Of a stretch of DNA of 63,208 nucleotides, positions 4,152 to 48,892 are shown in pieces. A program made the position numbers and the translations under genes. The notes below the pieces were generated by a model, which made no database searches, was not told the DNA's origin, and saw nothing but the letters and a program-made list of their open reading frames with translations. The DNA lies in the IMG/VR virus record IMGVR_UViG_3300031134_000612; one strand, written 5' to 3'. Every line of letters starts with the position of its first letter. The stretch's first letter is position 1. Source of the stretch: a virus (taxonomy: Duplodnaviria; Heunggongvirae; Uroviricota; Caudoviricetes).

Positions 4152-5195
4152 TTAGATAACCGCCATCTTATAAAGTAAAACAGATTCATTCGTTAAATCA
4201 TCTGAGAATACACCAAGTTGTGAAGTCAGTCGTTCTTTAATGCGATTTTGAAGATATTCATAAATGGCTTCATATCCTGAAATATCAACAGTGTCTTGTG
4301 TATTTAAATCAACTTCCAAATATCGTATTTCATTATTTCTAAATTTAAAATAAAGCGTTATACTTAACTCAAATTCATAATTATAAGTAAAAACAACAGA
4401 ATACAAATTAGTCGGTGTTCTATATTTATGGTTAGATAAACTATAATTAAACATTAATTCATAAGCAGTCTTGCCATATTTAAGATTAGATTCAAAACGA
4501 AGCAATGATTCAATTGTTTTAACTTGGTGCATAAGATTATTGCTAAAAACTTGTTTTAATGGTGTAAAAAAATCTTTTGGCTCAAGAGCAAAATTATAAA
4601 AAAACAGACCACTTTCTTCTTTACTGTAGTAAGTAAGATCAGTATTCTTTAAATTTTCAATTCTGAGTTCATCCACTGTCTTCTTGCCTATCTCATTAAA
4701 TAACGAAAATGTCATCCCCGGTTCAATATACTTGCAGAGTTCAACAAGGTGCTCAGAATAGAGTTCTTCAAAAATAACATCGTCAATCGGTTCGTTATGT
4801 TGTAGATATTTTTTTGAAGCAAGAACCATTCTCGTTTTAGTGCATTCTGGTTCTCTTGTTATTCCAAAATGAAACACATTGCCAAAATCAATAGAAATAT
4901 ACGAATTTTTTTGAGTATCTGATTGTTCACAAACCTCAATATTTACTTGTAAATCTTTTTTTGATGCGTATTCATGATCAACATGATAACGCAAATCAAA
5001 AAGTGAGGAAATTTGTTTGATTTTTGAAACATTCTGTTTAGCACATTCAAATGTAAAGAGAGCAAGCATCATATCATAATCGCGTGAACTTCTTTCAAAC
5101 GTATAAAAGCTGAATCGTCCGTCGATTGAGATAGGTGGGGTAAAATCATAATTTTTTTTCATTTTGTCTAAAATAAAATCATAAGATAGTGTCAC
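4152..5195 (-). CDS. Hypothetical protein, C-terminal MxxI-motif family
   Basis: 347-aa ORF ending VLLYKMAVI*. Confidence 0.75.
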   Translation of the reverse strand: MTLSYDFILDKMKKNYDFTPPISIDGRFSFYTFERSSRDYDMMLALFTFECAKQNVSKIKQISSLFDLRYHVDHEYASKKDLQVNIEVCEQSDTQKNSYISIDFGNVFHFGITREPECTKTRMVLASKKYLQHNEPIDDVIFEELYSEHLVELCKYIEPGMTFSLFNEIGKKTVDELRIENLKNTDLTYYSKEESGLFFYNFALEPKDFFTPLKQVFSNNLMHQVKTIESLLRFESNLKYGKTAYELMFNYSLSNHKYRTPTNLYSVVFTYNYEFELSITLYFKFRNNEIRYLEVDLNTQDTVDISGYEAIYEYLQNRIKERLTSQLGVFSDDLTNESVLLYKMAVI

Positions 5196-5300
5196 TTTAA
5201 AATCTCCACTTATAAGAAAACATTAATATTTTATCATAAATTGAACAAAAAAGCCAACTATATTGCTATAGCTGGCTTATTGATGAAAACATCATACAGA

Positions 5301-6485
5301 TTAAGGTTTAAATTTTGGCTTCTTTACTGGAACAGGAGCTGCCATCAATTTAACATCAATAACGTTCAACCCTTTTTTACGGAAGCCTTCAATTACGCGG
5401 TCAGTGTCATCATAAACAGCAACAACACGTTCCAAACCAATGTATTTTGAAATCCAAGCAGGCTTGATAACATAATCAGGCACTCGGTTTTCTGGACTAC
5501 GCAATTTGATACGGTCATAGCATACACCATAATCTTCCATCGACTTCAATGTTTTGTCCATGATTCGATCCACGCGACCACTCATCAACCAAATTTCGAA
5601 ACCTTTCGCACGATATTCTTTGGTCAAATCAATAATGTGTTGAATCGGTGTATCCAAATGACACAAGTCAAAATAGTTGTCCCAATCTTTCACATCACGG
5701 TATTGAGAACGGTGTTTTTCGTCCAGCAAAGTGCCATCAATGTCAAATACAACGACTGGTGGCAAAACAACTTCTTTCTTACAGTCAAACACTTCACGAA
5801 CACCCTGATAATCAGTCGCATACAATTCATGCTTTTCAACTTTACGAACAGTTTCTTTCAAGTAAACACCAAATTCAGCCCACATTTTTTGCAAGGCATC
5901 TACGGGTTCACCTTCTTTACGCTGCAAGTAACCACGCAATTCTGGATAATGAGCAGCTACATCACCTTTTGTAAACAGTTCAACATTGTCTTTCAACAGA
6001 GCCAGTGTTTGCCCCAACTGAAAAGCAAAGAACTTGTAGGTTTCAACCAGTGAAGATTTTTGATAGTCAGCTACATCACGCAAGTCAATGGAAGTCAACA
6101 CATCCAATTTGAAATCCAAATCAGCCGATTGCAATGCTTTTTTGACTTCTTCACGTTTTTCAGTGCGAGAATGATACGACAACAAACCACGAACAGTTCG
6201 AATCATTTTCAACGCATATGAACGTGGCAATGCTGCAGTGATTGGGTTAGCAGCCACTTGTTCATGAAGTCCATAGGTAGCAAGGATAGAGTTGTTACAC
6301 TCATCAACAGTACCTTTATAGCACCAGTTAACCACGCCATCTTTCACGCTCAAAAGGTTGCCGTTCACGTCTTTATAAGAATCGCAAAGTTTCTTTGCTT
6401 CTTGCATAGTGAGGGGTTCTGGAATGATGATATACGCATCAATGTCCAAAGAATCTTCTGAGCCGTGTTTGATTACTGGGTACAT
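5301..6485 (-). CDS. Nucleotidyltransferase-like domain fused to a HAD phosphatase (T4 PNK 3'-phosphatase type)
   Basis: N-terminal HGSEDSLDID (GS..DxD); C-terminal VFDIDGTL, LMSGR and YDD HAD motifs; basic tail KKPKFKP. Confidence 0.7.
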   Translation of the reverse strand: MYPVIKHGSEDSLDIDAYIIIPEPLTMQEAKKLCDSYKDVNGNLLSVKDGVVNWCYKGTVDECNNSILATYGLHEQVAANPITAALPRSYALKMIRTVRGLLSYHSRTEKREEVKKALQSADLDFKLDVLTSIDLRDVADYQKSSLVETYKFFAFQLGQTLALLKDNVELFTKGDVAAHYPELRGYLQRKEGEPVDALQKMWAEFGVYLKETVRKVEKHELYATDYQGVREVFDCKKEVVLPPVVVFDIDGTLLDEKHRSQYRDVKDWDNYFDLCHLDTPIQHIIDLTKEYRAKGFEIWLMSGRVDRIMDKTLKSMEDYGVCYDRIKLRSPENRVPDYVIKPAWISKYIGLERVVAVYDDTDRVIEGFRKKGLNVIDVKLMAAPVPVKKPKFKP

Positions 6486-7392: not shown

Positions 7393-7421
7393 TTGACTTA
7401 AGTGATTTATGAGAGTATTAT
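7393..7421 (+). promoter_or_regulatory. Sigma70-type promoter
   Basis: TTGACT-17 bp-TATTAT; overlaps the ORF-track start at 7402, favouring ATG 7459. Confidence 0.75.
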
Positions 7422-7458
7422 TCGATGTTACATCAATCAATTAGGAGAAATATTGAAC

Positions 7459-9858
7459 ATGATAAATACAAACACAATTCTTTTGGCAAACAATTTTGTG
7501 CAAGCAACTGAGGTTGTTTCCAACACGCCTGCGACCAAAGAAGAACTGTCCACTGTATTTGCAAACATGGTTCACTATGGCTGGACTCCATCACGCGAAG
7601 TTATTGAGAAACTTCAAACCTATTCAGCCCAAGATCTAGAAGCCTTCTGGTTGGCAGTAGAACCTGCCTTTAAAGAAGTCACTGCTTCTGATCGTAATAT
7701 GGAATCGGCTGTGGTTTATAAGAATTTCCCAAAAGAAGTTCTGGATAAATCAGAAGCGGAATATTGGTTCTGCCAGATTTTGATGTATGTTGGATTCAGC
7801 CAAGATTACTTTGCTGATGATAAAGTAGAGCGTCCAGCACTCAAAGAACAAAAGAATTTGAAAGTATTGCACCTTGCTAAAGAAGATACCTTGAACACTA
7901 TCAAGGATACACTTGTGCAATCTAAAAACCGTTGGAATGATCAACAAAAAGATTTCGCTATCCAGTTGGTGACTCAAAACACCCAAGAAACTATCAATTT
8001 GAGCGATTTTGGCTTCAAAGAGAATGGTATCAACGTTATCAAGCAAGCTATTGAAAGCGGTCTTAGTTTCGCTATTAAAGACGCAACTGACGTTATGCGT
8101 TTGGCTGCAGCTATGTCTGATGCCGATGTTTCACTCAGAACCAAAGTAAAATTCAAAAAATTCACTCGTAAAGAGCGTAAGACTTTGTTGTCATTGTTGA
8201 ATAAAACCAACAATTTGGCCGATGACGTAGCAATGCGTCAACAAGACTGGAAGAAATTTATGTTCCAGCTTCACCCAAAAGATTACAATTTCCCAAAAGT
8301 GTCTGCTGTTTATGGCACGCTTTGCAATGGAGAACTCAAAAGTTTCAACGCGAAAGTTGAACATAAAGTGTTGTCGAAAGATGCCACTGTGTTTGATATG
8401 CTTTCAAACCGTCAAGGTGACTTGATGCGTCGTTTCCACAAATTGTATGAAGTGTTTGGTGAGAAGGCTGTTGATTCCATTGTAGCTCTTGTTGAGAAGT
8501 TTGATACATTGCAGTTGTTAAAGTTGAAAAAATACGTCAAAACTATCAATGAACGTGAGCATTTCATTTATGCTCCAAATGGTAATTGGACAAAAGCCCA
8601 TTTTGTCGCTCGTGTTGAAAAAGATCTTGCCGATCAAAAAGAATACGTGGCACCTGTCAAAAAAGCAAAAGTGAAAAAATCTGAAAAAGTGGCTGATGTC
8701 ATTGAACCTGCTGTTGTCGAAGTTGTAGAAACAGAAGTTGAACAACCAGCGATTACAGAAGTATCTTCGGGTGTTCCATCAATGGATGCGTTGGCAATGT
8801 TGATCGAGAAATTCAAGGGCAATCTTGAACCCGCACCACAACCGATGTTCGTGCCAACACCAAAACCAGCTTATGTAGCTTACAAAACACCTGAAAAGGT
8901 TATCTACAAACCTATTAAAAATGGTAAAGTCGCGTTGTCCAACGAAGCGATTGATACCATTGTTAATGCGGTAAATACTGAGATTGCTAAACGTATGGAA
9001 GCACTCTTCCCAGAAGGCGTAAATTTGGATTCGGCTACTCGTTCCATTAAACTTCAAACCAACGATCAAACCTTGGCTGCAAGCTATGGCCGTGGTACCG
9101 TTTTTGATATGCCAGAAAATGTAAACTTCATTCGAAGTGCAAGCTACTGGAAAATGCCAAACGTGGGTAATGTCTGGTTCGATAACGGTTGGAACTTTTT
9201 TGATGAAAGCTGGGCTGCGAAAGGTGCATGCTGCTGGAACAGTGCATACAGCTACCATGATGAAGATGGTTCTGGTTCAATCACTACGGGTGCGGTCTTC
9301 TCGGGTGACCCAGTAATCAGTCAAGATACAAAAGGTCGTGGTTGCCAGATGATTGATTTGTACATTGATCAATTAATCAGTGCTGGGGTACGTTATGCTG
9401 TTTGGAATATCTTGTCGTTTAACAGTGAGCCTTTTGATGCTGCCGAAGATTTGGTTGGCACATTGCAAATGGGTGAGAATGCAGAAGAAGGCAAGCTGTA
9501 TGAGCCAAGCCGTGCTCAATTTGTCTTTGAAGTCAAAGGTCAAAATTTGACCAAGTATGTGGCTTACCTTGACTTGGTTGAACGAAAGGTTGTTTACATG
9601 GACGCTAACTTGTATGGTCATGTACAATCTGCGGGTTCAAATGGTGTATTGTTGTCAGAAAGAATGCCAGCTTTCGTAGAGTATTTGAATACACTTCCAT
9701 CTGTGTTTGATTTGTTTGAAAGTGTAAAAGAAGGTGAAACCCCGATTTTGAACAGTGATAAAGATATCGAGATTACCACTGAACGTGCTTATGTATTTAG
9801 CAGTAGAAATACAGAAAACAGTTACGAAAAGATTGAAATTAACTCACTACTTAAGTGA
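7459..9858 (+). CDS. Large protein with C-terminal TerD-like domain
   Basis: WFDNGW...FSGDP...QMIDLYID...RYAVWNILSFNSEPF resembles TerD-fold stress proteins; helical N-terminus; Pro/Lys/Glu-rich linker. Confidence 0.55.
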   Translation: MINTNTILLANNFVQATEVVSNTPATKEELSTVFANMVHYGWTPSREVIEKLQTYSAQDLEAFWLAVEPAFKEVTASDRNMESAVVYKNFPKEVLDKSEAEYWFCQILMYVGFSQDYFADDKVERPALKEQKNLKVLHLAKEDTLNTIKDTLVQSKNRWNDQQKDFAIQLVTQNTQETINLSDFGFKENGINVIKQAIESGLSFAIKDATDVMRLAAAMSDADVSLRTKVKFKKFTRKERKTLLSLLNKTNNLADDVAMRQQDWKKFMFQLHPKDYNFPKVSAVYGTLCNGELKSFNAKVEHKVLSKDATVFDMLSNRQGDLMRRFHKLYEVFGEKAVDSIVALVEKFDTLQLLKLKKYVKTINEREHFIYAPNGNWTKAHFVARVEKDLADQKEYVAPVKKAKVKKSEKVADVIEPAVVEVVETEVEQPAITEVSSGVPSMDALAMLIEKFKGNLEPAPQPMFVPTPKPAYVAYKTPEKVIYKPIKNGKVALSNEAIDTIVNAVNTEIAKRMEALFPEGVNLDSATRSIKLQTNDQTLAASYGRGTVFDMPENVNFIRSASYWKMPNVGNVWFDNGWNFFDESWAAKGACCWNSAYSYHDEDGSGSITTGAVFSGDPVISQDTKGRGCQMIDLYIDQLISAGVRYAVWNILSFNSEPFDAAEDLVGTLQMGENAEEGKLYEPSRAQFVFEVKGQNLTKYVAYLDLVERKVVYMDANLYGHVQSAGSNGVLLSERMPAFVEYLNTLPSVFDLFESVKEGETPILNSDKDIEITTERAYVFSSRNTENSYEKIEINSLLK

Positions 9859-12055: not shown

Positions 12056-13123
12056 TCAAATAGATTCCATTTCAATTAGTTGAATTTCTCTTTTCAAATC
12101 TGTGATTTTATAACCAAGCCATTTTTCAAGATAAATAATAAAAAATTGGCGAATCATTGTTGTATCATAATCAATACAGTTAGTGCGAAGCCATGTGAAA
12201 CTTTCAGAGATACTATCTTTTTTACCAAAAACAAATGAAAGATTATGTCGGTTAATATTAATTTGTAGTTCGAGTTCACCTTTAGACATCATCTCTAATG
12301 ACAGATCTCTTTTTTGATGTTTAATTTTAAGAAATGAAATTTCATTGATAGGTGTAAAAATAGAATTATTATAGTAAATGTTCGTTAGTTGGTTATCAAA
12401 ATCTAAAACATTTTCTAAAATCTTAATCGTTTCTAAAAATTGCAAGCCATCGTTAATTAATACAAAAAAATTAGCTTGCGGATCTTTTAACTGACTGTTG
12501 GTTAAAGCATTCAAGTGATCAACTACCTTAAAACTGTTAAAATTTTCTTCGATATTAATGTCAAAAGAAATATTTTGATTTAAAAAAGGATAACCATTAC
12601 ACATTTTTAATTCAAAGTGGTCATCAGCAGCAATAATGCGATAATAAATTTTACTATCTTTCTCCATATACAACAGGTCATCTGCAATAAAATTTAAGTA
12701 TTCAGATAGTCTAGTATTAAATGAATCACTGGTAAATAATACTCTAGTTTTAATAAAATCAACCAATTTGCTATTGCGACTATCACCACTAAGAATTAAA
12801 TTTTCATCACCTAAAAAATCTAGTACATAAGATTGATCAAATGGTTTAGACAAATCAAATTTACCTATAAAACAAAAATCATTAATATTATCTTTATTGT
12901 AAATATCTAAGTGAACATAATTATCAATCAGTTCCATTCTAAACTGAATTCCAAAATCAGTTGTTTTACCTGACAATGCACAATCGACTAAAAGATTTAA
13001 ATATTTATTCAACAATGTTTTATTATCTTCATCATCAAGTTCTTTAAGTGTTGTTTTCTTTAATTCAGATATGAAACAATCTTGAATAATTCCTGATTCA
13101 GCTAACTGCATATATAGAGTCAT
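12056..13123 (-). CDS. Paralog-array protein 5 (duplicated N-terminal domain), MxxI family
   Basis: YLNLLVDCAL and YLNFIADDLL repeats, NGYPFL; ends IQLIEMESI*. Confidence 0.75.
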   Translation of the reverse strand: MTLYMQLAESGIIQDCFISELKKTTLKELDDEDNKTLLNKYLNLLVDCALSGKTTDFGIQFRMELIDNYVHLDIYNKDNINDFCFIGKFDLSKPFDQSYVLDFLGDENLILSGDSRNSKLVDFIKTRVLFTSDSFNTRLSEYLNFIADDLLYMEKDSKIYYRIIAADDHFELKMCNGYPFLNQNISFDINIEENFNSFKVVDHLNALTNSQLKDPQANFFVLINDGLQFLETIKILENVLDFDNQLTNIYYNNSIFTPINEISFLKIKHQKRDLSLEMMSKGELELQININRHNLSFVFGKKDSISESFTWLRTNCIDYDTTMIRQFFIIYLEKWLGYKITDLKREIQLIEMESI

Positions 13124-13968
13124 TAAATAGTTTCCATATCAAATAAGAGTAGTTCACTTTTCAAATCTTTAACCTCGTAGTCTTTTCTTTTTTCAACAAA
13201 AGATCGGATAAAAAATTGAATAAGATTTAAATCACGACTAAAATTGTTTGATGATGTAAGTTTCAGTCCATCACAATCATTAAAATGAATGCTTATTTTA
13301 TCGTGTTCAATCTTGATTTCAACAAAAGGTGATTTAACATTAATAAATGGAGTTCTTTGACTAAAACAATGAAGAGTAAAATTGAAAGATGATTCTGCAA
13401 CAGAAACAGACGCACTGGTTGCTATGTTATTTTGATGAAAAACATTCATTAGATTATTATTAAAAAAGAAAGCTTCATCAATCAACTTAACATTACGTTT
13501 CATGTTTCGTCCTTTTTCAATATCCATAGGTGGATAGTCACTCAAAAATAATTCATGATCATAGCCGATAGAGCAATCAATATAACGATGAACATCATCT
13601 TTGGTGCCCCAGTCATCACCATCAACAGTGTCAACCTTCGAAAGAGATGCAGCCAAGGTGTGAACACTGGCCTTTTCTTTTAAATCAAAAGACAGAAAAA
13701 TACAATCATTGTAATAAGGATATGATTTTCCAAGCATAAGCCCCATGAACATATGGTCAGCACCCAATGATATTTCAACATCTAGTTCAAAATCACCATC
13801 ATAAATTAACATATCTTCAACCAGCAAGTCGAAATAAGCCAGCATTCTATTATTCTTTTGTTTAGACATTCCTTTAATATTGACACGTTTCAAATCCGTC
13901 AACATAATGGTGTGGTTGTCATTATTTGACAACATAAGTAAGTTTTCGTCTTTTTTTGATTTGGTCAT
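13123..13968 (-). CDS. Paralog-array protein 4, MxxI family
   Basis: YFDLLVEDML, KSYPYY, VKLIDEAFF; TAATG overlap with the next gene; ends LLLFDMETI*. Confidence 0.75.
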   Translation of the reverse strand: MTKSKKDENLLMLSNNDNHTIMLTDLKRVNIKGMSKQKNNRMLAYFDLLVEDMLIYDGDFELDVEISLGADHMFMGLMLGKSYPYYNDCIFLSFDLKEKASVHTLAASLSKVDTVDGDDWGTKDDVHRYIDCSIGYDHELFLSDYPPMDIEKGRNMKRNVKLIDEAFFFNNNLMNVFHQNNIATSASVSVAESSFNFTLHCFSQRTPFINVKSPFVEIKIEHDKISIHFNDCDGLKLTSSNNFSRDLNLIQFFIRSFVEKRKDYEVKDLKSELLLFDMETI

Positions 13969-14013
13969 AACATAGCCTCAAAAATAATGGCTTATTATAA
14001 CATATCTGAACAA

Positions 14014-14790
14014 TTAAATATACTTCATTTTAAACAAAGCAACGAAATCTGCATAGTCAATATCCAAAAATTCAGGAGAGTAATGATCGTACAAGTTTTT
14101 AAAGGTTAGTTTAAATAAGGTGACATCATTGTTAAAATTAGATTTTCTTACAAGGAAGCTAAAACGCTTAGTTTCAGAAATAATAACAATTTCATCAGTC
14201 CTAATAGAAAAGGCAAATGGTCCAAAATTAAAACGGGTAGACAAAAAATTTTCGCCACCACATTCAATCTCAAAAAGAGATGTTTTCACATTGTTTTTTT
14301 GAAACGGATTAAAGGGGCATTTTAATAGTTTGTTTAATATTTCATCATTGCAATAAAAAGCCTCATCAAATACCTTAACTGCATTAAAAAATAATGCGGC
14401 ATCTAAAATATTAATAGACTTATAAACGAAAGCATTTAATTGATTTGTTGTATCACCAGTGTCTATGCAACAGTTTTCTATAACATTCGATATCACTTTG
14501 TTGGTAACATGCTCTATATCACAATTAAACTTAAAAATAACTGGCATTCTGGTATTCTTAATGAATGGATAAGACTCTTTAAGACTAATACTGAATGTTT
14601 GATAATCGTAATAACAAACAACACTGGTCACCAATTGCTCGTGGTGAACAAGGATATCATCAATGAGAGCGTTTAAGAATTTTCGAATATTATCAATTTT
14701 ACTGGCAATACATTCTCTTCCACGAAGATCAATAGTGCGAAGTTCTTCAATGTTGAGTGTATAGGTATTGCCAATAATAATAGTTGTCAT
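14014..14790 (-). CDS. Paralog-array protein 3, MxxI family
   Basis: FLNALIDDIL, ESYPFI, VKVFDEAFY; ends VALFKMKYI*. Confidence 0.75.
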   Translation of the reverse strand: MTTIIIGNTYTLNIEELRTIDLRGRECIASKIDNIRKFLNALIDDILVHHEQLVTSVVCYYDYQTFSISLKESYPFIKNTRMPVIFKFNCDIEHVTNKVISNVIENCCIDTGDTTNQLNAFVYKSINILDAALFFNAVKVFDEAFYCNDEILNKLLKCPFNPFQKNNVKTSLFEIECGGENFLSTRFNFGPFAFSIRTDEIVIISETKRFSFLVRKSNFNNDVTLFKLTFKNLYDHYSPEFLDIDYADFVALFKMKYI

Positions 14791-15617
14791 ATCGCCATCA
14801 TTTCTTCTAGTGTGAACCAGCGTGCTAAATCAGTATGTTCCGTCTTCAATTGGGCATTGTAGAAACCTAAAAATAATGTAACAAATTTCTTAACACTGAT
14901 ATCCAGTAGTTGGTTTTTGTATAATGTGAAATCCATTGAATCTTCAAAATATTCAAACCTAACAGTGTTCTTATTCACTTTAATGTAAAATTCATTGTTA
15001 CACAATGTTAAATCAATGTTATTAGAATTATAATCTCTTAGATCAAAAATAGAATAATAATCTTCTGTAACATAAGCATTAACATTATACACTTTATTTT
15101 TGACAAATGATGTTAGTTTTCCATCTTGTTCAAAAGCTTTATCTATAACATCAAAGGCATAAAATACATCGAGTGCGTCAATATCAATAAAAGGTTCAAA
15201 TGAATTTTCATCATCATCTTGATTAAATTTATAGATATCATTTTTATTTAAAGTGTTAAGTGTTTTTGCAATTAAATCGCTTGTAATCATGTCAATAGGC
15301 AAATTTAAATCCAGTGGAAAAGCAACGGGATAATTGTCATCTGTTCTATTGTGGTGGTATATATCATTCAAAAAAGAAAAGAAAGGATAAGAGTGCTTAA
15401 TTCGAATAGAAAAAAAATTATGATTTAAATCTATGCTAATGCTGGTCAGTTGATCTTCTCGCATACAAAGAATGTCATCAGCTAAAATGTTTAAAAATTT
15501 AGAAATTTTATAGTTGTCAGATACAGTTACTGAATTGACTTCTGCATTCAATAAGTTGGATAACAATACAGATTGTTTACCAATTTTTAATTGACAAGGC
15601 GTAGATTCTTCGTACAT
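14787..15617 (-). CDS. Paralog-array protein 2, MxxI family
   Basis: FLNILADDIL, HSYPFF, FDVIDKAFE; ATGA overlap; ends FTLEEMMAI*. Confidence 0.75.
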   Translation of the reverse strand: MYEESTPCQLKIGKQSVLLSNLLNAEVNSVTVSDNYKISKFLNILADDILCMREDQLTSISIDLNHNFFSIRIKHSYPFFSFLNDIYHHNRTDDNYPVAFPLDLNLPIDMITSDLIAKTLNTLNKNDIYKFNQDDDENSFEPFIDIDALDVFYAFDVIDKAFEQDGKLTSFVKNKVYNVNAYVTEDYYSIFDLRDYNSNNIDLTLCNNEFYIKVNKNTVRFEYFEDSMDFTLYKNQLLDISVKKFVTLFLGFYNAQLKTEHTDLARWFTLEEMMAI

Positions 15618-15680
15618 GCAGTCTCTCCATTTTGAAGCTATTTTAGCAGATTTATTTTATGAAAGCAATGGAAATAATGC

Positions 15681-15709
15681 TTGACTTTTTGTTTTAAATG
15701 TCATATTAT
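15681..15709 (+). promoter_or_regulatory. Sigma70-type promoter of RNA array A
   Basis: TTGACT-17 bp-TATTAT. Confidence 0.8.
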
Positions 15710-15715
15710 ATACAA

Positions 15716-15898
15716 ACAGTAAGGCTATGAAATTGGTTCCTTCTACCTAATATCAGATTTACCATTTCGATTTCCATACTAACAATTACACCGAGGCTAG
15801 CATTAAGGTTCCTTCTAACTTAAACATTAAACTTAAATCGATTAAACCTTGTCAATTCCCTCAAAAAAACAAACTTGTAGTGATACAGGTTTTTTTTT
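15716..15898 (+). ncRNA. Structured RNA array A (2 units) with terminator
   Basis: GGTTCCTTCTA at 15735 and 15807, each preceded by AGGCTA and followed by GA(T/C)T..ACC..TTCC; AAACTTGT/ACAGGTTT-T8 terminator; no ORF. Confidence 0.75.
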
Positions 15899-15963
15899 GC
15901 CTAAAATAAAGTAAATAAAAAAATGAAGACTTAGATAGTCTTCATTAATATTGTAGAAATTTA

Positions 15964-16359
15964 TTAGATATGAATCATATTAAAGAGGTCAACAAATTGC
16001 TCAATGTTGTCGAATTGTTGTTCTGAGTTCATATTGATAACTGTAAGCATTAGCTGTTTAAATTGCTCTATTTTTAATGAAGACGATGGCGTAAATTGAA
16101 CACCAAAATCCCCATAGAAACAAAAAATCCTCGTATTTTCTACTTTTAATATGAAGTCTTTTGCGAAAAGATGAAAATCATACATATCAGGATCTCGACT
16201 AAAAGTAAAACCATTACAGAACTCTTCACGATTAGTTTCATCATTTTTCTGCATATCCGAACAAATTTTATGGATCGCTCCATTAGCTTTGAATAATCGG
16301 TCAACAATCATAATATTATTTAAAACTGCATTTTTCTCAAATTCTGTATAGTCACTCAT
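15964..16359 (-). CDS. Paralog-array protein 1 (C-terminal half only), MxxI family
   Basis: IMIVDRLFK aligns with the D-x-AF block of its neighbours; ends VDLFNMIHI*. Confidence 0.7.
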   Translation of the reverse strand: MSDYTEFEKNAVLNNIMIVDRLFKANGAIHKICSDMQKNDETNREEFCNGFTFSRDPDMYDFHLFAKDFILKVENTRIFCFYGDFGVQFTPSSSLKIEQFKQLMLTVINMNSEQQFDNIEQFVDLFNMIHI

Positions 16360-16442
16360 AATAGGAATCCTTTTTTAAAATAAAATATTTTAATGTAGTT
16401 AATTTTACCATAATTTTAAATAAAAAACAATGAATAAAATGC

Positions 16443-16470
16443 TTGACTTCTAGATAGAATGTGTTAATAT
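16443..16470 (+). promoter_or_regulatory. Sigma70-type promoter of RNA array B
   Basis: TTGACT-16 bp-TAATAT with TGn extended -10. Confidence 0.75.
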
Positions 16471-16476
16471 TGTAGT

Positions 16477-16653
16477 TAGATAAGGCTATGAATTAGGTTC
16501 CTTCTAAACATTCTTTTAAATGACGATTCACCTGTTCGCTTTCCATATCTACTTATTCAAGGCTATGATTACGGTTCCTTCTATTCTAATGGCAGACTTA
16601 CCTGATCGCTTCCCTTAAAACAAAAGACTTAACAGCGATGTTAGGTCTTTTTT
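16477..16653 (+). ncRNA. Structured RNA array B (2 units) with terminator
   Basis: AAGGCTATGA-N4/5-GGTTCCTTCTA at 16482-16506 and 16559-16583; ACCTGNTCGCTT(T/C)CC 3' boxes; AAGACTTAAC/GTTAGGTCTT-T terminator. Confidence 0.75.
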
Positions 16654-16718
16654 GTTTTCTATCGAAAATAGAAAAAAATCCATCAGGGAAGAAAGATTTT
16701 TTTGTTTTTCATATTAAC

Positions 16719-47029: not shown

Positions 47030-48892
47030 ACTACCCCGCCATGAATGGCGAAGTTTCTTGGGGTTTTGAAAACTGTCCCCACCGCTGACGTTCATTGTCA
47101 GCTTCAAACAAAGCTGTCAGCTTTGCTTGCACGTTTTCTCTTTTCATTTTTGATGGAACATACTGTCCATCTTTCAACAGGTGAAAAGTGAACCGAAGAA
47201 CTTCCTCGGTTATTCTGTTTCTTACATTTTTTGATGCATTCTCATCGGCGTCTTCTTTATGACCACACACATTGCAATGAAAACTTCTTCCAGATCTAAC
47301 AGTGTGTTCCACACTGTGACAGTTTGAACAGGTTTTCGATGTATAGCTGGGTGTGGTCAAATGCACACGAATGCCTTTGTTATTCGCTTGTTCTTGAAAC
47401 CAATCTTTAACACTTGATAATCTTAACAAGCGAATAAGCTTTGAATACTTAATATTTAATGTTTCATCCTTGATGAAAGATGCTTTGCATTGTGAAAGAT
47501 TTAAATCTTCTAACACAATGTCGGTTATTCCTTCATTAATGAGGCTTTTTAAAGTGTTTGATATAAGTTCTTTAAAATGAAACTCAACACCGCCTAATAG
47601 CTTGTTAAATTGATCTTGCTCATATTGAGTTAATTGTTTAAACCCTTTCTTCTCAAAAGATTGTAGAGACTCTACAACCTTTTGAATATAATCACGGTTG
47701 TAATCAATGGCAAGGGTTTTATTGTGAAACGCAATGGTGCAGAAGTTTGAAGCAACATTTATATCAATTCCACATACTGCCTCTTTATTAATAACACTGT
47801 CTTTTTCTAATGGCTTGAAATATTCTTTTTCATCTTCGTAAGTTAAACCAATTTCAATGCGATTTTTTCTATTGAGACTCACTGTATGAACAGCGTCAAG
47901 ATTAAAATCATTAATATCGTTGTGATATTTAGGATTGAAAGCTAACGGAACATGGATATGTTCCTTGCCAATCCTAAAATTATACCAATATTTATACTCA
48001 TTAGATTCATCAACATAAATATGAGAATGGAGAGTTTGACCAATTTTAGGTATTTTCATGTAAGAACCTGTTGAAAACACAATCGATGTCTTCATGGACT
48101 TTAACATTCTCACTTGCTTTCGAAGTAAAAGGGTTTTAATTCTATCCCAAAGAAAAACTTCAACACCTTCTTTGGTGAAGTGCCTTTTAGTTCTTAGATC
48201 ATTAAGACTTGCGTTAAATTTTTCAATCTCTTGTATTTTTTTAGGATTATCTTCATTTTCTTTATGAGCTTTTAAAACAGAGTCAAGCCTAGAAGGATCA
48301 ACATAGATTAACCAATTTGACAAATTGGTTAATATTGTTGATTTATGAATAACTTCTGTTTTTTTTATATCACCTTTTAAAGCAATAACTTGTCCAAGGT
48401 GGTTGGTTACTTTGCGTTTATACCGTGTAATTTTAAATTCTTTTTGAAGAACGAACTTTTGATTATCGGTTAGTTTATCTGCCCAATTAGAATAAAAATC
48501 TACGATTTGTTGATATATTTTTTGAACTTCCCAAGAATATAATTCGGAACAGTTGAATTGTTTGGCATGAGAAATAAGTGTATTTTTAGAAGATGAAGAA
48601 ATAAGCGACATCTTATGATTGAAAATATGTTGAGAAATTTGATTTTTAAGCGACTTAACGAAAGCAAAATGCTCAACAAAACGTTGAGTCTTCTTCGAAT
48701 TGACAATCGAAGAAGCCGAGATACGTTTAGCTTTAATGCGTTTTTTTTCTGAACTACCGTAAGCCATTAGTTTTCCTATAAAAAGTCTTGCTAGAGTATA
48801 ACTTGATATCTAATAAAAAGCAAGCAAAAAAAGAAAGAAAACAAAAAACCATAAAATTCTTATCCTCCACCTGAAGGAAGAGGTATTGAATT
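47026..48892 (-). mobile_element. tnpB-only IS200/IS605-family (IS1341-like) element
   Basis: Subterminal hairpins CCTCTTCC-TTCA-GGTGGAGG (left end) and CGCCATTCATGGCG followed by GGGTAGTTCAT (right end); TTTAA immediately 5' of the left end; no tnpA; exact boundaries inferred. Confidence 0.7.
47031..48767 (-). CDS. tnpB: TnpB-family RNA-guided endonuclease
   Basis: RuvC-I CGIDIN, RuvC-II IVLEDL, CSNC..CNVC zinc finger, RuvC-III ADENAS, C-terminal QETSPFMAG overlapping the right-end hairpin. Confidence 0.9.
   Translation of the reverse strand: MAYGSSEKKRIKAKRISASSIVNSKKTQRFVEHFAFVKSLKNQISQHIFNHKMSLISSSSKNTLISHAKQFNCSELYSWEVQKIYQQIVDFYSNWADKLTDNQKFVLQKEFKITRYKRKVTNHLGQVIALKGDIKKTEVIHKSTILTNLSNWLIYVDPSRLDSVLKAHKENEDNPKKIQEIEKFNASLNDLRTKRHFTKEGVEVFLWDRIKTLLLRKQVRMLKSMKTSIVFSTGSYMKIPKIGQTLHSHIYVDESNEYKYWYNFRIGKEHIHVPLAFNPKYHNDINDFNLDAVHTVSLNRKNRIEIGLTYEDEKEYFKPLEKDSVINKEAVCGIDINVASNFCTIAFHNKTLAIDYNRDYIQKVVESLQSFEKKGFKQLTQYEQDQFNKLLGGVEFHFKELISNTLKSLINEGITDIVLEDLNLSQCKASFIKDETLNIKYSKLIRLLRLSSVKDWFQEQANNKGIRVHLTTPSYTSKTCSNCHSVEHTVRSGRSFHCNVCGHKEDADENASKNVRNRITEEVLRFTFHLLKDGQYVPSKMKRENVQAKLTALFEADNERQRWGQFSKPQETSPFMAG

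What the first reader, a model, noticed from the sequence alone, without database searches (positions are those of the whole stretch)
15681..16653. Two stand-alone arrays of a covarying structured RNA motif (4 units) with fixed boxes and variable loops
Each array has a consensus sigma70 promoter (15681-15709; 16443-16470), two units spaced 72 or 77 nt apart, and an intrinsic terminator, with no ORF. Unit consensus is AAGGCTATGA-N4/5-GGTTCCTTCTA-[variable, about 10-24 nt]-GA(T/C)T-N-ACC-N3-TC(G/A)-N-TT(T/C)CC. Pairing covaries. The outer stem is AGTAAGG/CCATACT in unit 1, AGATAAGG/CCATATCT in unit 3, GAGG/CCTC in unit 2 and AAGG/CCTT in unit 4. The inner stem is ATTGGT/ACCATT, AAGGTT/AACCTT, TAGGT/ACCTG and GGT/ACC. 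The result is a rod with two conserved internal loops and a variable apical loop. It matches no CRISPR repeat, tRNA, riboswitch or ToxI/AntiQ sequence I recognise. Both arrays lie divergently next to members of the 12-16 kb paralog cluster and share duplicated upstream sequence (AATG...AATGCTTGACTT). Hypotheses, all inference: a guide or scaffold RNA for a new RNP with the neighbouring proteins; decoy RNAs for a host defence or RNA-binding protein (Racr or pseudo-ToxI style); or anti-Shine-Dalgarno sRNAs, since UUCCUUCU can pair with AGAAGGAA.
Basis: partly seen in the sequence, partly recalled or inferred. Interest (0 to 1): 0.92.

Follow-up and report, generated by a model that had tools for sequence, protein, structure and literature searches.

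The report
Phage Y-RNA-like RNAs with TerD partner
The four repeated hairpins are real, structured small RNAs of a large, undescribed family of big-phage RNAs that always travels with one uncharacterised 700-800-residue protein, probably forming an RNA-protein particle comparable to the Ro60/Y-RNA RNA-repair particle of cells.

Summary
Observation confirmed. Two promoter/terminator-bounded genes (15681-15898, 16443-16661, + strand) each hold two ~65-78-nt hairpin units. They belong to a widespread phage ncRNA family that is absent from Rfam: more than 300 covariance-model hits in about 130 IMG/VR loci.

The family consensus is P1 (ends GG/CC), CUA, a P2 helix of exactly 10 bp, an invariant single-stranded UCCUUCUA, a variable module, P2', (A/C)UUU, P1'. 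Covariation is very strong: 94-97% of cells pair, against 59-63% in shuffles.

The likely partner is not the adjacent "MxxI" paralogs. It is a helical + TerD-fold protein (phrog_33734), encoded in the window at 7402-9858 on the same strand. All 79 loci fetched by that protein alone carry the RNA, always on the gene's strand and often inside tRNA clusters and near RNA-repair genes (Thg1-like, RlaP, PNKP phosphatase).

Longer family members carry a permuted tRNA-like module in the order T arm, closed acceptor stem, D arm, as bacterial YrlA Y RNAs do. No TROVE/Ro60 homology or Ro-binding motif was found.

Best reading: a Ro60/Y-RNA-like scaffold RNP with a non-TROVE protein. The mechanism is inferred. 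First-stage readers of this scan flagged the same motif and the same TerD protein in other genomes. Cultured carriers are Xanthomonas phages XacN1 and Xoo-sp13.

The parts
15681..15709 (+). sigma70-type promoter of RNA gene 1 (TTGACT-17-TATTAT)
   Evidence: conserved in orthologous loci
15716..15780 (+). unit 1: P1 GUAAGG/CCAUAC, CUA, P2 UGAAAUUGGU/ACCAUUUCG (1-nt bulge), UCCUUCUA, 15-nt variable loop, AUUU
   Evidence: CM hits 72.6 bits with R1 and 46.2 bits with R2; fold
15788..15865 (+). unit 2: same architecture; the base of P2 is degenerate (CUAGCA / CAAUUC)
   Evidence: CM hit 59 bits with R1; fold
15871..15898 (+). intrinsic terminator of gene 1 (9-bp hairpin plus U9)
   Evidence: fold; conserved
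16443..16471 (+). sigma70-type promoter of RNA gene 2 (TTGACT, extended -10)
   Evidence: conserved
16477..16549 (+). unit 3
   Evidence: CM hits 76.8 bits with R1 and 42.7 bits with R2
16554..16619 (+). unit 4
   Evidence: CM hits 65.4 bits with R1 and 40.3 bits with R2
16622..16661 (+). intrinsic terminator of gene 2
7402..9858 (+). candidate protein partner, phrog_33734. The N-terminal helical domain (about residues 1-370 of the 799-residue form) is related to proteins labelled ZorC-EH/DUF4132. A low-complexity linker follows, then a C-terminal TerD fold. The likely start is the ATG at 7459.
   Evidence: RNA linkage
5301..6485 (-). context: protein with a PNKP-type HAD phosphatase domain (an RNA end-healing type), divergent from the partner gene
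   Evidence: Pfam HAD_PNKP, E 1.6e-17
12056..16359 (-). context: five weakly related 'MxxI-tail' paralogs interleaved with the RNA genes. A functional link is unproven.
   Evidence: also next to the RNAs in L001; no Pfam, PHROG or Atlas lead

Best explanation
The four units are trans-acting small RNAs of a widespread phage ncRNA family. They are made as two dimer transcripts from their own promoters. Each unit is a rod: P1, a conserved 3x4 internal loop (CUA / (A/C)UUU), exactly one helical turn of P2 (10 bp), then an invariant single-stranded UCCUUCUA and a variable apical module.

Inferred: the rod and the UCCUUCUA are the binding platform for the phage's helical + TerD protein (window 7402-9858). 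The variable module, which in other phages is a permuted tRNA-like domain, recruits or mimics other RNAs or enzymes. The particle would then work like the Ro60/Y-RNA (Rsr-YrlA) RNP, as a scaffold for tRNA/RNA quality control or repair, or as protection against host RNA-targeting defences during infection.

Shown here: the family, its structure, and the gene linkage, strand and context. Inferred: physical binding and the function.
For: - Family and structure. Model R1 gave 129 hits. Model R2 gave 226 hits and then more than 300.
- Covariation. In one search, 96.6% of cells pair against 62.8% in shuffles, with 113 double-change cells against 33.8 and slid controls at 41-52%. One search gives 93.9% against 58.7% on 116 distinct units from loci fetched by protein only.
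- Fixed geometry. P2 is exactly 10 nt in 149 of 162 unique units, and UCCUUCU is present in 160 of 162.
- Linkage. The protein family lies next to the RNA on the same strand in 44 of 55 RNA-fetched loci. All 79 protein-fetched loci have RNA units, and every listed hit is on the gene's strand. Across five near-complete phage genomes, 23 of 25 units sit at the gene.
- The window's protein is 60% identical to the L001 homolog, which lies directly upstream of that phage's RNA dimers.
- Y-RNA likeness. Of the 22 long units (about 123-144 nt), most carry a T arm, a closed acceptor stem and a D arm in the YrlA order (compare PMC4201824). Same-strand linkage is also a YrlA trait.
- Context. tRNA or tmRNA genes lie on the same strand within 3 kb in 27 of 53 loci. 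A Thg1-like gene is present in 10 loci. An RlaP RNA-repair nucleotidyltransferase is nearby in XacN1, and a PNKP-type phosphatase is in the window.
- Conservation. Orthologous RNA genes are about 92-95% identical where a neighbouring protein is only 52% identical.
- Weak structural hint. Three Ro60 structures align to residues 139-294 of the protein (Z 4.7-5.7, 135-141 residues).
- Weak expression hint. RNA-library contigs cover gene 1, including an adapter-flanked insert at 15728-15860 that spans both units.
Against: - No binding was tested.
- The protein shows no TROVE signal by sequence (hhalign probability 0.1). The Ro60 structural matches are below the level that excludes a generic helical repeat.
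- The Ro-binding motif GNCGAAN0-1G is absent, 0 of 162 units.
- The window's own four units have no tRNA-like module.
- In the window the protein gene is 5.8 kb away, with other genes in between.
- The best structural relative of the N-domain is a protein labelled ZorC-EH, and ZorC is a DNA-binding defence component.
- The extreme invariance of UCCUUCUA would also fit base pairing to a universal RNA.
Confidence: 0.55

Rival explanations
1. Anti-Shine-Dalgarno or other base-pairing regulator. The invariant UCCUUCUA pairs with purine-rich sites: AGAAGGA perfectly, AGGAGGA with one G-U pair. It would block or sponge ribosome-binding sites or another universal RNA, with the protein acting as chaperone or not needed.
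For: An 8-nt single-stranded element is invariant in 160 of 162 units from phages with unit G+C of about 0.2-0.58 and with partner proteins only 20-25% identical. That is what a universal RNA target would produce. The element resembles the 16S anti-SD (established knowledge).
Against: AGAAGGA is at 0 of 72 upstream regions in the window, and the 7-nt wobble-tolerant target is at 2 of 72. The genes use GGAG/AGGAG. The rod geometry (exactly 10 bp) and the internal loop are conserved as well, which pairing alone does not need. No target was identified.
Confidence: 0.15
2. Decoy or sponge for a host tRNA- or RNA-targeting defence (anticodon nucleases, retron or PARIS-type effectors, HEPN RNases), acting by mimicry of tRNA parts.
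For: The units sit in phage tRNA clusters next to tRNA/RNA-repair genes, and some carry tRNA-like modules. Phage tRNAs are known counter-defence tools (10.1101/2023.03.15.532788).
Against: The conserved core is not tRNA-like, and the window's units have no tRNA module. Obligate linkage to one protein is not explained by a pure decoy.
Confidence: 0.12
3. RNA-guided system. The variable module is a guide that directs the ZorC-like/TerD protein to a nucleic-acid target.
For: The layout is a constant scaffold plus a variable segment, in arrays of 2-5 units next to one protein. The N-domain is related to a protein labelled ZorC-EH.
Against: The variable modules are about 95% conserved among diverged relatives instead of turning over. 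They are often structured (hairpins, tRNA-like). No complementary site exists in the window except the genes themselves. No nuclease domain was found in the protein.
Confidence: 0.08
4. One reading: the RNAs form an RNP with the adjacent MxxI-tail paralogs (12056-16359).
For: The RNA genes are interleaved with the paralog array in the window, in its orthologous loci and in the 437-kb relative L001. Earlier first-reader notes report the same layout in other genomes.
Against: The paralogs are absent from the neighbourhoods of the other roughly 120 loci, where only the TerD protein recurs. They lie on the opposite strand. All the supporting loci belong to one clade.
Confidence: 0.07
5. Cis-regulatory leader or trailer elements of the TerD-protein mRNA (autoregulatory operators).
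For: In most loci the units lie directly upstream and/or downstream of the gene on the same strand. In L005 the last unit abuts the ribosome-binding site.
Against: In the window they are separate transcription units 5.8 kb from the gene, with their own promoters and terminators.
Confidence: 0.03

Closest known systems
Bacterial/phage Y RNAs (YrlA, YrlB, Yrn1) with Ro60/Rsr (PMC4201824; phage Ro60 in PMC12135203)
   Same: Small RNAs of 60-145 nt, often two or more in tandem, encoded on the same strand as one RNA-binding protein gene and within a few kb of it. A long stem is formed by the 5' and 3' ends and carries a conserved site, followed by a large loop and a variable module. Long members carry a tRNA-like domain in the order T arm, closed acceptor stem, D arm. 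The neighbourhood holds RNA-repair genes.
   Different: The partner has no TROVE or vWA domain by sequence; it is a helical domain plus a TerD fold. The Ro-binding motif GNCGAAN0-1G/GGUCCGA is absent. The conserved elements are CUA/(A/C)UUU and UCCUUCUA. Most units, including all four in the window, lack the tRNA-like module. There is no Rfam match.
TerD-domain proteins and proteins labelled ZorC 'EH signature'/DUF4132 (protein side)
   Same: The C-terminal domain superposes on TerD structures (2qz7_B Z 13.6, 2kxt Z 12.1). The N-terminal domain matches an AlphaFold cluster labelled ZorC EH-domain protein (E 6.8e-19, 28% identity).
   Different: No ter operon or Zorya genes are nearby. No Pfam EH_Signature hit. 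The fusion of these two domains with obligate ncRNA neighbours is not described in the papers searched.
Type III toxin-antitoxin RNA repeats (ToxI and relatives) and RNA anti-CRISPRs
   Same: Tandem structured RNA units carried by phages.
   Different: The units are not identical repeats. They are 58-144 nt long, with covarying stems that differ from unit to unit. The window has no toxin gene downstream on the same strand, and no CRISPR-repeat likeness.

Membership tests
Y RNA / YrlA (Ro60-associated ncRNA) | Encoded on the same strand as its protein partner and within about 4 kb of it | tested here: met
   All 79 protein-fetched loci have units within 3 kb, all on the same strand. In the window the strand is the same but the distance is 5.8 kb. 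The partner is not Ro60.
Y RNA / YrlA (Ro60-associated ncRNA) | The partner is a TROVE-domain Ro60 protein (by sequence) | tested here: not met
   No TROVE hit in 21 members at E<=10. hhalign against a phage TROVE protein gives probability 0.1. TROVE is absent from 4 of 5 near-complete phage genomes that carry the module.
Y RNA / YrlA (Ro60-associated ncRNA) | The partner has the Ro60 helical-repeat ring fold | tested here: inconclusive
   Three Ro60 chains (9l5y_B, 2nvo_A, 1yvp_A) align to residues 139-294 at Z 4.7-5.7 over 135-141 residues. This is below a safe threshold for helical repeats. Foldseek gives no hit.
Y RNA / YrlA (Ro60-associated ncRNA) | 5' Ro-binding motif GNCGAAN0-1G (GGUCCGA in animals) | tested here: not met
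   0 of 162 unique units
Y RNA / YrlA (Ro60-associated ncRNA) | tRNA-like domain in the order V, T arm, closed acceptor stem, D arm | tested here: inconclusive
   Present in most of the 22 long units of the family. Absent from the window's four units and from most short units.
Any Rfam 15 family | Covariance-model match at gathering score | tested here: not met
   Window: 0 hits. Region at E<=10: only chance-level hits. Six related loci: only tRNA.
Type III TA antitoxin RNA (ToxI-like) | Near-identical short tandem repeats directly upstream of the toxin gene on the same strand | tested here: not met
   The units differ in stem sequence. In the window the next genes after each terminator are on the opposite strand.
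CRISPR array / RNA anti-CRISPR | Identical direct repeats separated by unrelated spacers | tested here: not met
   The conserved boxes flank covarying helices inside each unit. The variable parts are conserved between relatives.
TerD domain (protein partner, C-terminus) | TerD beta-sandwich fold or Pfam PF02342 | tested here: met
   2qz7_B Z 13.6 and 2kxt Z 12.1. Foldseek E 2e-5 to 1e-3. Pfam TerD in 4 of 21 members, best E 1.6e-6.
ZorC EH-signature domain (protein partner, N-terminus) | Homology to the ZorC EH domain | tested here: inconclusive
   AFDB cluster A0A5C5XM72 at E 6.8e-19 and 28% identity, but its name comes from automatic annotation. No Pfam EH_Signature hit. No ZorC chain among the PDB hits listed.

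The most novel reading that the evidence does not exclude
A new class of phage ribonucleoprotein. A non-TROVE helical + TerD protein and arrays of modular RNAs would be convergent with, or very distantly related to, Ro60/Y RNA. The invariant UCCUUCUA would capture a universal host RNA element (Shine-Dalgarno-type purine tracts or a tRNA/rRNA segment), so that large phages can repair, protect or redirect the translation apparatus during infection.
Probability: 0.3. Interest if true: 0.9.

Novelty: new variant of a known kind. Interest (0 to 1): 0.8.

Why it matters
Hundreds of copies of a strongly covarying RNA sit next to one uncharacterised protein in large phages from many habitats, including the cultured jumbo phages XacN1 and Xoo-sp13. 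Neither the RNA nor the protein is annotated, and the RNA is not in Rfam.

If the pair is an RNP, it gives a function to a common phage 'hypothetical protein' (phrog_33734). It adds a second, non-TROVE solution to the Ro60/Y-RNA principle. It also opens a testable route into how big phages manage tRNA and RNA damage, or translation, in the host.

The fixed 10-bp spacer and the invariant 8-mer are ready-made handles for mutagenesis and structure work.

Tried and rejected
- Rfam at gathering score and at E<=10: nothing relevant.
- blastn of the region against phage and plasmid collections: no match.
- The genome contigs pattern scan gave 25 single hits in unrelated taxa. They scored at chance level with the model and were discarded.
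- No whole genome is held for the window.
- K-turn, box C/D, hammerhead, HDV-like and tRNA readings of the window units were considered from the sequence. I dropped them once the family alignment showed that the 'UGA/CGA' boxes are ordinary P2 base pairs. ARAGORN finds no tRNA in the window or in the short units.
- A first brute-force parse of the helices mis-assigned the 3' strands. I replaced it with a parse anchored on the model columns.
- Pfam, PHROGs, NCBIfam and the Atlas give no lead for the MxxI paralogs.
- PDB sequence searches for the partner protein gave nothing. Foldseek on the N-domain gave nothing significant.
- Literature searches for the motif, for SCO0854/MXAN_6230, for TerD with phage RNA, and for the EH signature found no description of this system.
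- No site complementary to the variable loops exists in the window apart from the genes themselves.
- RNA-library contigs leave much of the 4-kb stretch uncovered. Contigs cannot show transcript ends, strand or level.
- No TROVE-like gene in the window by tblastn with one phage TROVE protein. This covers only the 63-kb window.

Full report
**1. What is in the window**

The 11-mer GGTTCCTTCTA occurs four times, all on the + strand, at 15735, 15807, 16496 and 16573. Shuffles give a mean of 0.69 and none of 100 reaches four. The four copies form two pairs, spaced 72 and 77 nt. Each pair follows a TTGACT promoter, at 15681 and 16443. Each pair ends in a hairpin plus U-run terminator. No ORF fits either gene.

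Each unit folds as a rod whose 5' and 3' ends pair. Rfam 15 gives no match at gathering score for the whole window and only chance-level hits at E<=10 for the region.

**2. It is a large family, and the family fixes the structure**

Pattern scans of IMG/VR found the motif in many phage contigs of 60-480 kb. A covariance model built from 11 units (R1) gave 129 hits, 99 of them unique. Parsing these hits on the model's columns gives the architecture below:

- P1, at least 6 bp, always ending GG/CC.
- CUA.
- P2, a 10-bp helix (U-N8-U paired with A-N8-R).
- UCCUUCUA, single-stranded.
- A variable module.
- P2', the 3' strand of P2.
- (A/C)UUU.
- P1', the 3' strand of P1.

That clade also has a 1-nt bulge in P2, and the window's unit 2 is degenerate at the base of P2.

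Covariation was tested on two alignments:

| Alignment | Cells paired | Shuffled | Slid controls | Double-change cells |
|---|---|---|---|---|
| 22 diverse units (MAFFT) | 96.6% | 62.8% | 41-52% | 113 vs 33.8 |
| 116 distinct units from loci fetched by protein only | 93.9% | 58.7% | 37-51% | 670 vs 222 |

In the first alignment, 8 of the 10 P2 pairs change on both sides.

P2 is exactly 10 nt in 149 of 162 unique units, and UCCUUCU is present in 160 of 162. The column-wise invariants are GG, CUA, U, UCCUUCU, A, UU and CC. A strict structural regex finds 343 units, 183 of them unique. Most are 58-100 nt long, and a second group of 22 is about 123-144 nt.

**3. The conserved neighbour is one protein, and not the adjacent paralogs**

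I clustered all ORFs within 3 kb of the RNA hits. One family of about 690-800 residues (phrog_33734, function unknown) lies beside the RNA on the same strand in 44 of 55 loci. The next most frequent family, a Thg1-like protein, is in 10 loci.

The window has a member at 7402-9858 (+). It is 60% identical to the L001 protein, which lies directly upstream of that 437-kb phage's two RNA dimers.

As an independent test I fetched loci by the protein profile alone (79 loci) and searched them with a second model (R2). All 79 loci contain units, and all of the more than 300 hits are on the strand of the protein gene, just upstream and/or downstream of it.

Across five near-complete phage genomes, 23 of 25 units lie at the gene. 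In the window the RNA genes are 5.8 kb downstream on the same strand, separated from the gene by two unknown genes and by the divergent paralog array.

The five 'MxxI-tail' paralogs (12056-16359) are real but weakly related, at 17-23% identity. They also accompany the RNAs in the window's orthologous loci and in L001. They are absent from the other clades.

**4. What the protein is**

An AlphaFold model built from 21 aligned family members (pLDDT 71.5) has three parts: a helical N-terminal domain, a disordered linker, and a C-terminal beta-sandwich.

- The C-terminal domain superposes on TerD structures: 2qz7_B at Z 13.6 and 2kxt at Z 12.1, and Foldseek E 2e-5. Pfam TerD is detected in 4 of 21 members.
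- The N-terminal domain (model pLDDT 82) matches AlphaFold clusters labelled 'ZorC EH domain-containing' (E 6.8e-19, 28% identity), 'TerD family', 'RING finger family' and DUF4132.
- In an exhaustive comparison with PDB representatives, three Ro60 structures (phage phiLo 9l5y_B, Deinococcus 2nvo_A, Xenopus 1yvp_A) give the longest alignments, 135-141 residues onto residues 139-294. Their Z scores are only 4.7-5.7, too low to exclude a generic helical repeat.
- No TROVE signal appears by Pfam or by hhalign against a phage TROVE protein. Four of five near-complete phage genomes with the module have no TROVE gene.

**5. Why I compare it with Y RNAs**

Of the 22 long units, most carry a complete tRNA-like domain inside the variable region, in this order: anticodon-stem 3' strand, variable loop, T arm (GGUUCGAnUCC), acceptor stem closed by a small loop, D arm, anticodon-stem 5' strand. 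Examples are L006 8311-8447 and L085 3811-3955. One unit has the normal order and scores 47 bits with the Rfam tRNA model.

The T arm, closed acceptor stem, D arm order is the organisation described for bacterial YrlA Y RNAs. Those RNAs are also encoded on the same strand as their protein, Ro60, and within 4 kb of it (PMC4201824).

The genomic context fits as well:
- tRNA or tmRNA genes lie on the same strand within 3 kb in 27 of 53 loci.
- Thg1-like genes are present in 10 loci.
- An RlaP RNA-repair nucleotidyltransferase lies 1.4 kb upstream in XacN1.
- A PNKP-type phosphatase lies next to the partner gene in the window.

The differences are equally clear. There is no GNCGAAN0-1G Ro-binding motif, in 0 of 162 units. 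The partner is not a TROVE protein by sequence. Most units, including the window's four, have no tRNA-like part. I therefore treat Ro60/Y RNA as what this system works like, not as its family.

**6. Constraint and expression**

Orthologous loci came from contigs of up to 773 kb. There the neighbouring paralog is 52-88% identical. All of these loci keep the 2+2 units. The RNA genes are about 92-95% identical across them, including the 'variable' loops, promoters and terminators. The loops are therefore functional, not spacer-like.

Four RNA libraries from three studies hold contigs that cover RNA gene 1. One contig is a 133-nt insert (15728-15860) flanked by sequencing adapters, and it bridges units 1 and 2. 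This is only weak support, because contigs cannot exclude DNA carry-over and the runs were chosen with this stretch.

**7. Mechanism and rivals**

Best reading, confidence 0.55: the rod, with its internal loop and the UCCUUCUA one helical turn away, is the platform for the helical + TerD protein. The apical module provides specificity. The result would be a Ro60/Y-RNA-like particle acting on tRNA or RNA quality control, repair or protection.

Rivals:
- UCCUUCUA could act by pairing with purine-rich sites such as Shine-Dalgarno tracts. Its invariance across very different phages favours this. However, AGAAGGA is at none of 72 upstream regions in the window, and the genes use GGAG/AGGAG.
- The RNAs could be a decoy for tRNA-targeting defences.
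- The variable module could be a guide. Against this, the modules are conserved and structured, and there is no complementary site in the window.
- The RNAs could form an RNP with the MxxI paralogs. That association is restricted to one clade.
- The units could be a cis-acting leader. Against this, the window's genes are separate transcription units.

**8. Novelty**

I found no description in Rfam or in the papers searched. In the GenBank records of Xanthomonas phages XacN1 and Xoo-sp13 the protein is a 'hypothetical protein' and the RNA-bearing gaps are unannotated.

First-stage readers of this scan had already flagged the same motif, a Y-RNA-like reading, and the TerD protein as a candidate partner in other genomes. 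Those notes were untested. The linkage and the structure are tested here.

The element itself looks like a very large phage. Its IMG/VR relatives include a 437-kb genome rated 98% complete. The same stretch occurs in phyllosphere, surface and food-production metagenomes, among other runs.

Noticed in passing
window 12056-16359 (-); L001 922-3538 (+): An array of weakly related paralogs (17-23% identity) shares DDIL, SYPF and a C-terminal (E)MxxI tail. They have no Pfam, PHROG or Atlas lead, and the RNA genes are interleaved with them in this clade only.
   Followed up: partly
L213 3477-3860 (Xanthomonas phage XacN1, AP018399.1); L214 3767-3914 (Xoo-sp13, MN047793.1): Two cultured jumbo phages carry 3 and 2 RNA units in unannotated gaps directly upstream of the partner homologs (ORF396, Xoosp13_353). 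They are ready experimental models. An RlaP RNA-repair nucleotidyltransferase lies 1.4 kb upstream in XacN1; Xoo-sp13 has a gene annotated 'nucleotidyl transferase' at the matching place, which I did not test.
   Followed up: partly
L006 8311-8447 (-), L085 3811-3955 (-), L153/L155/L160/L161 about 5125-5262 (+): Units of about 134 nt contain a circularly permuted tRNA-like domain: T arm, acceptor stem closed by a loop, then D arm, opened at the anticodon stem. ARAGORN calls no tRNA in L006 (the other loci were not all scanned), and Rfam's tRNA model does not call it in L006 or L085.
   Followed up: partly
window 5301-6485 (-): This protein has a PNKP-type HAD phosphatase domain (Pfam HAD_PNKP, E 1.6e-17) behind an N-terminal domain that Pfam does not name. 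It is an RNA end-healing type enzyme, divergent from the partner gene.
   Followed up: partly
window 47031-48767 (-): A 578-residue protein with weak TnpB/Cas12f-type RNA-guided endonuclease hits (NCBIfam guided_TnpB, E 5.9e-18, below cut-off). No omega-RNA was looked for.
   Followed up: no
G005 (provirus record of L143): C1 35980-36699 and C1 45561-45628: The one phage genome that also has a true TROVE/Ro60 gene carries a lone RNA unit of this family about 9 kb from it, in addition to the main cluster at its TerD-protein gene.
   Followed up: no
L134, L174, L180, L188: Phage-encoded tmRNA genes lie on the same strand within 3 kb of the partner gene in four of 53 loci.
   Followed up: no
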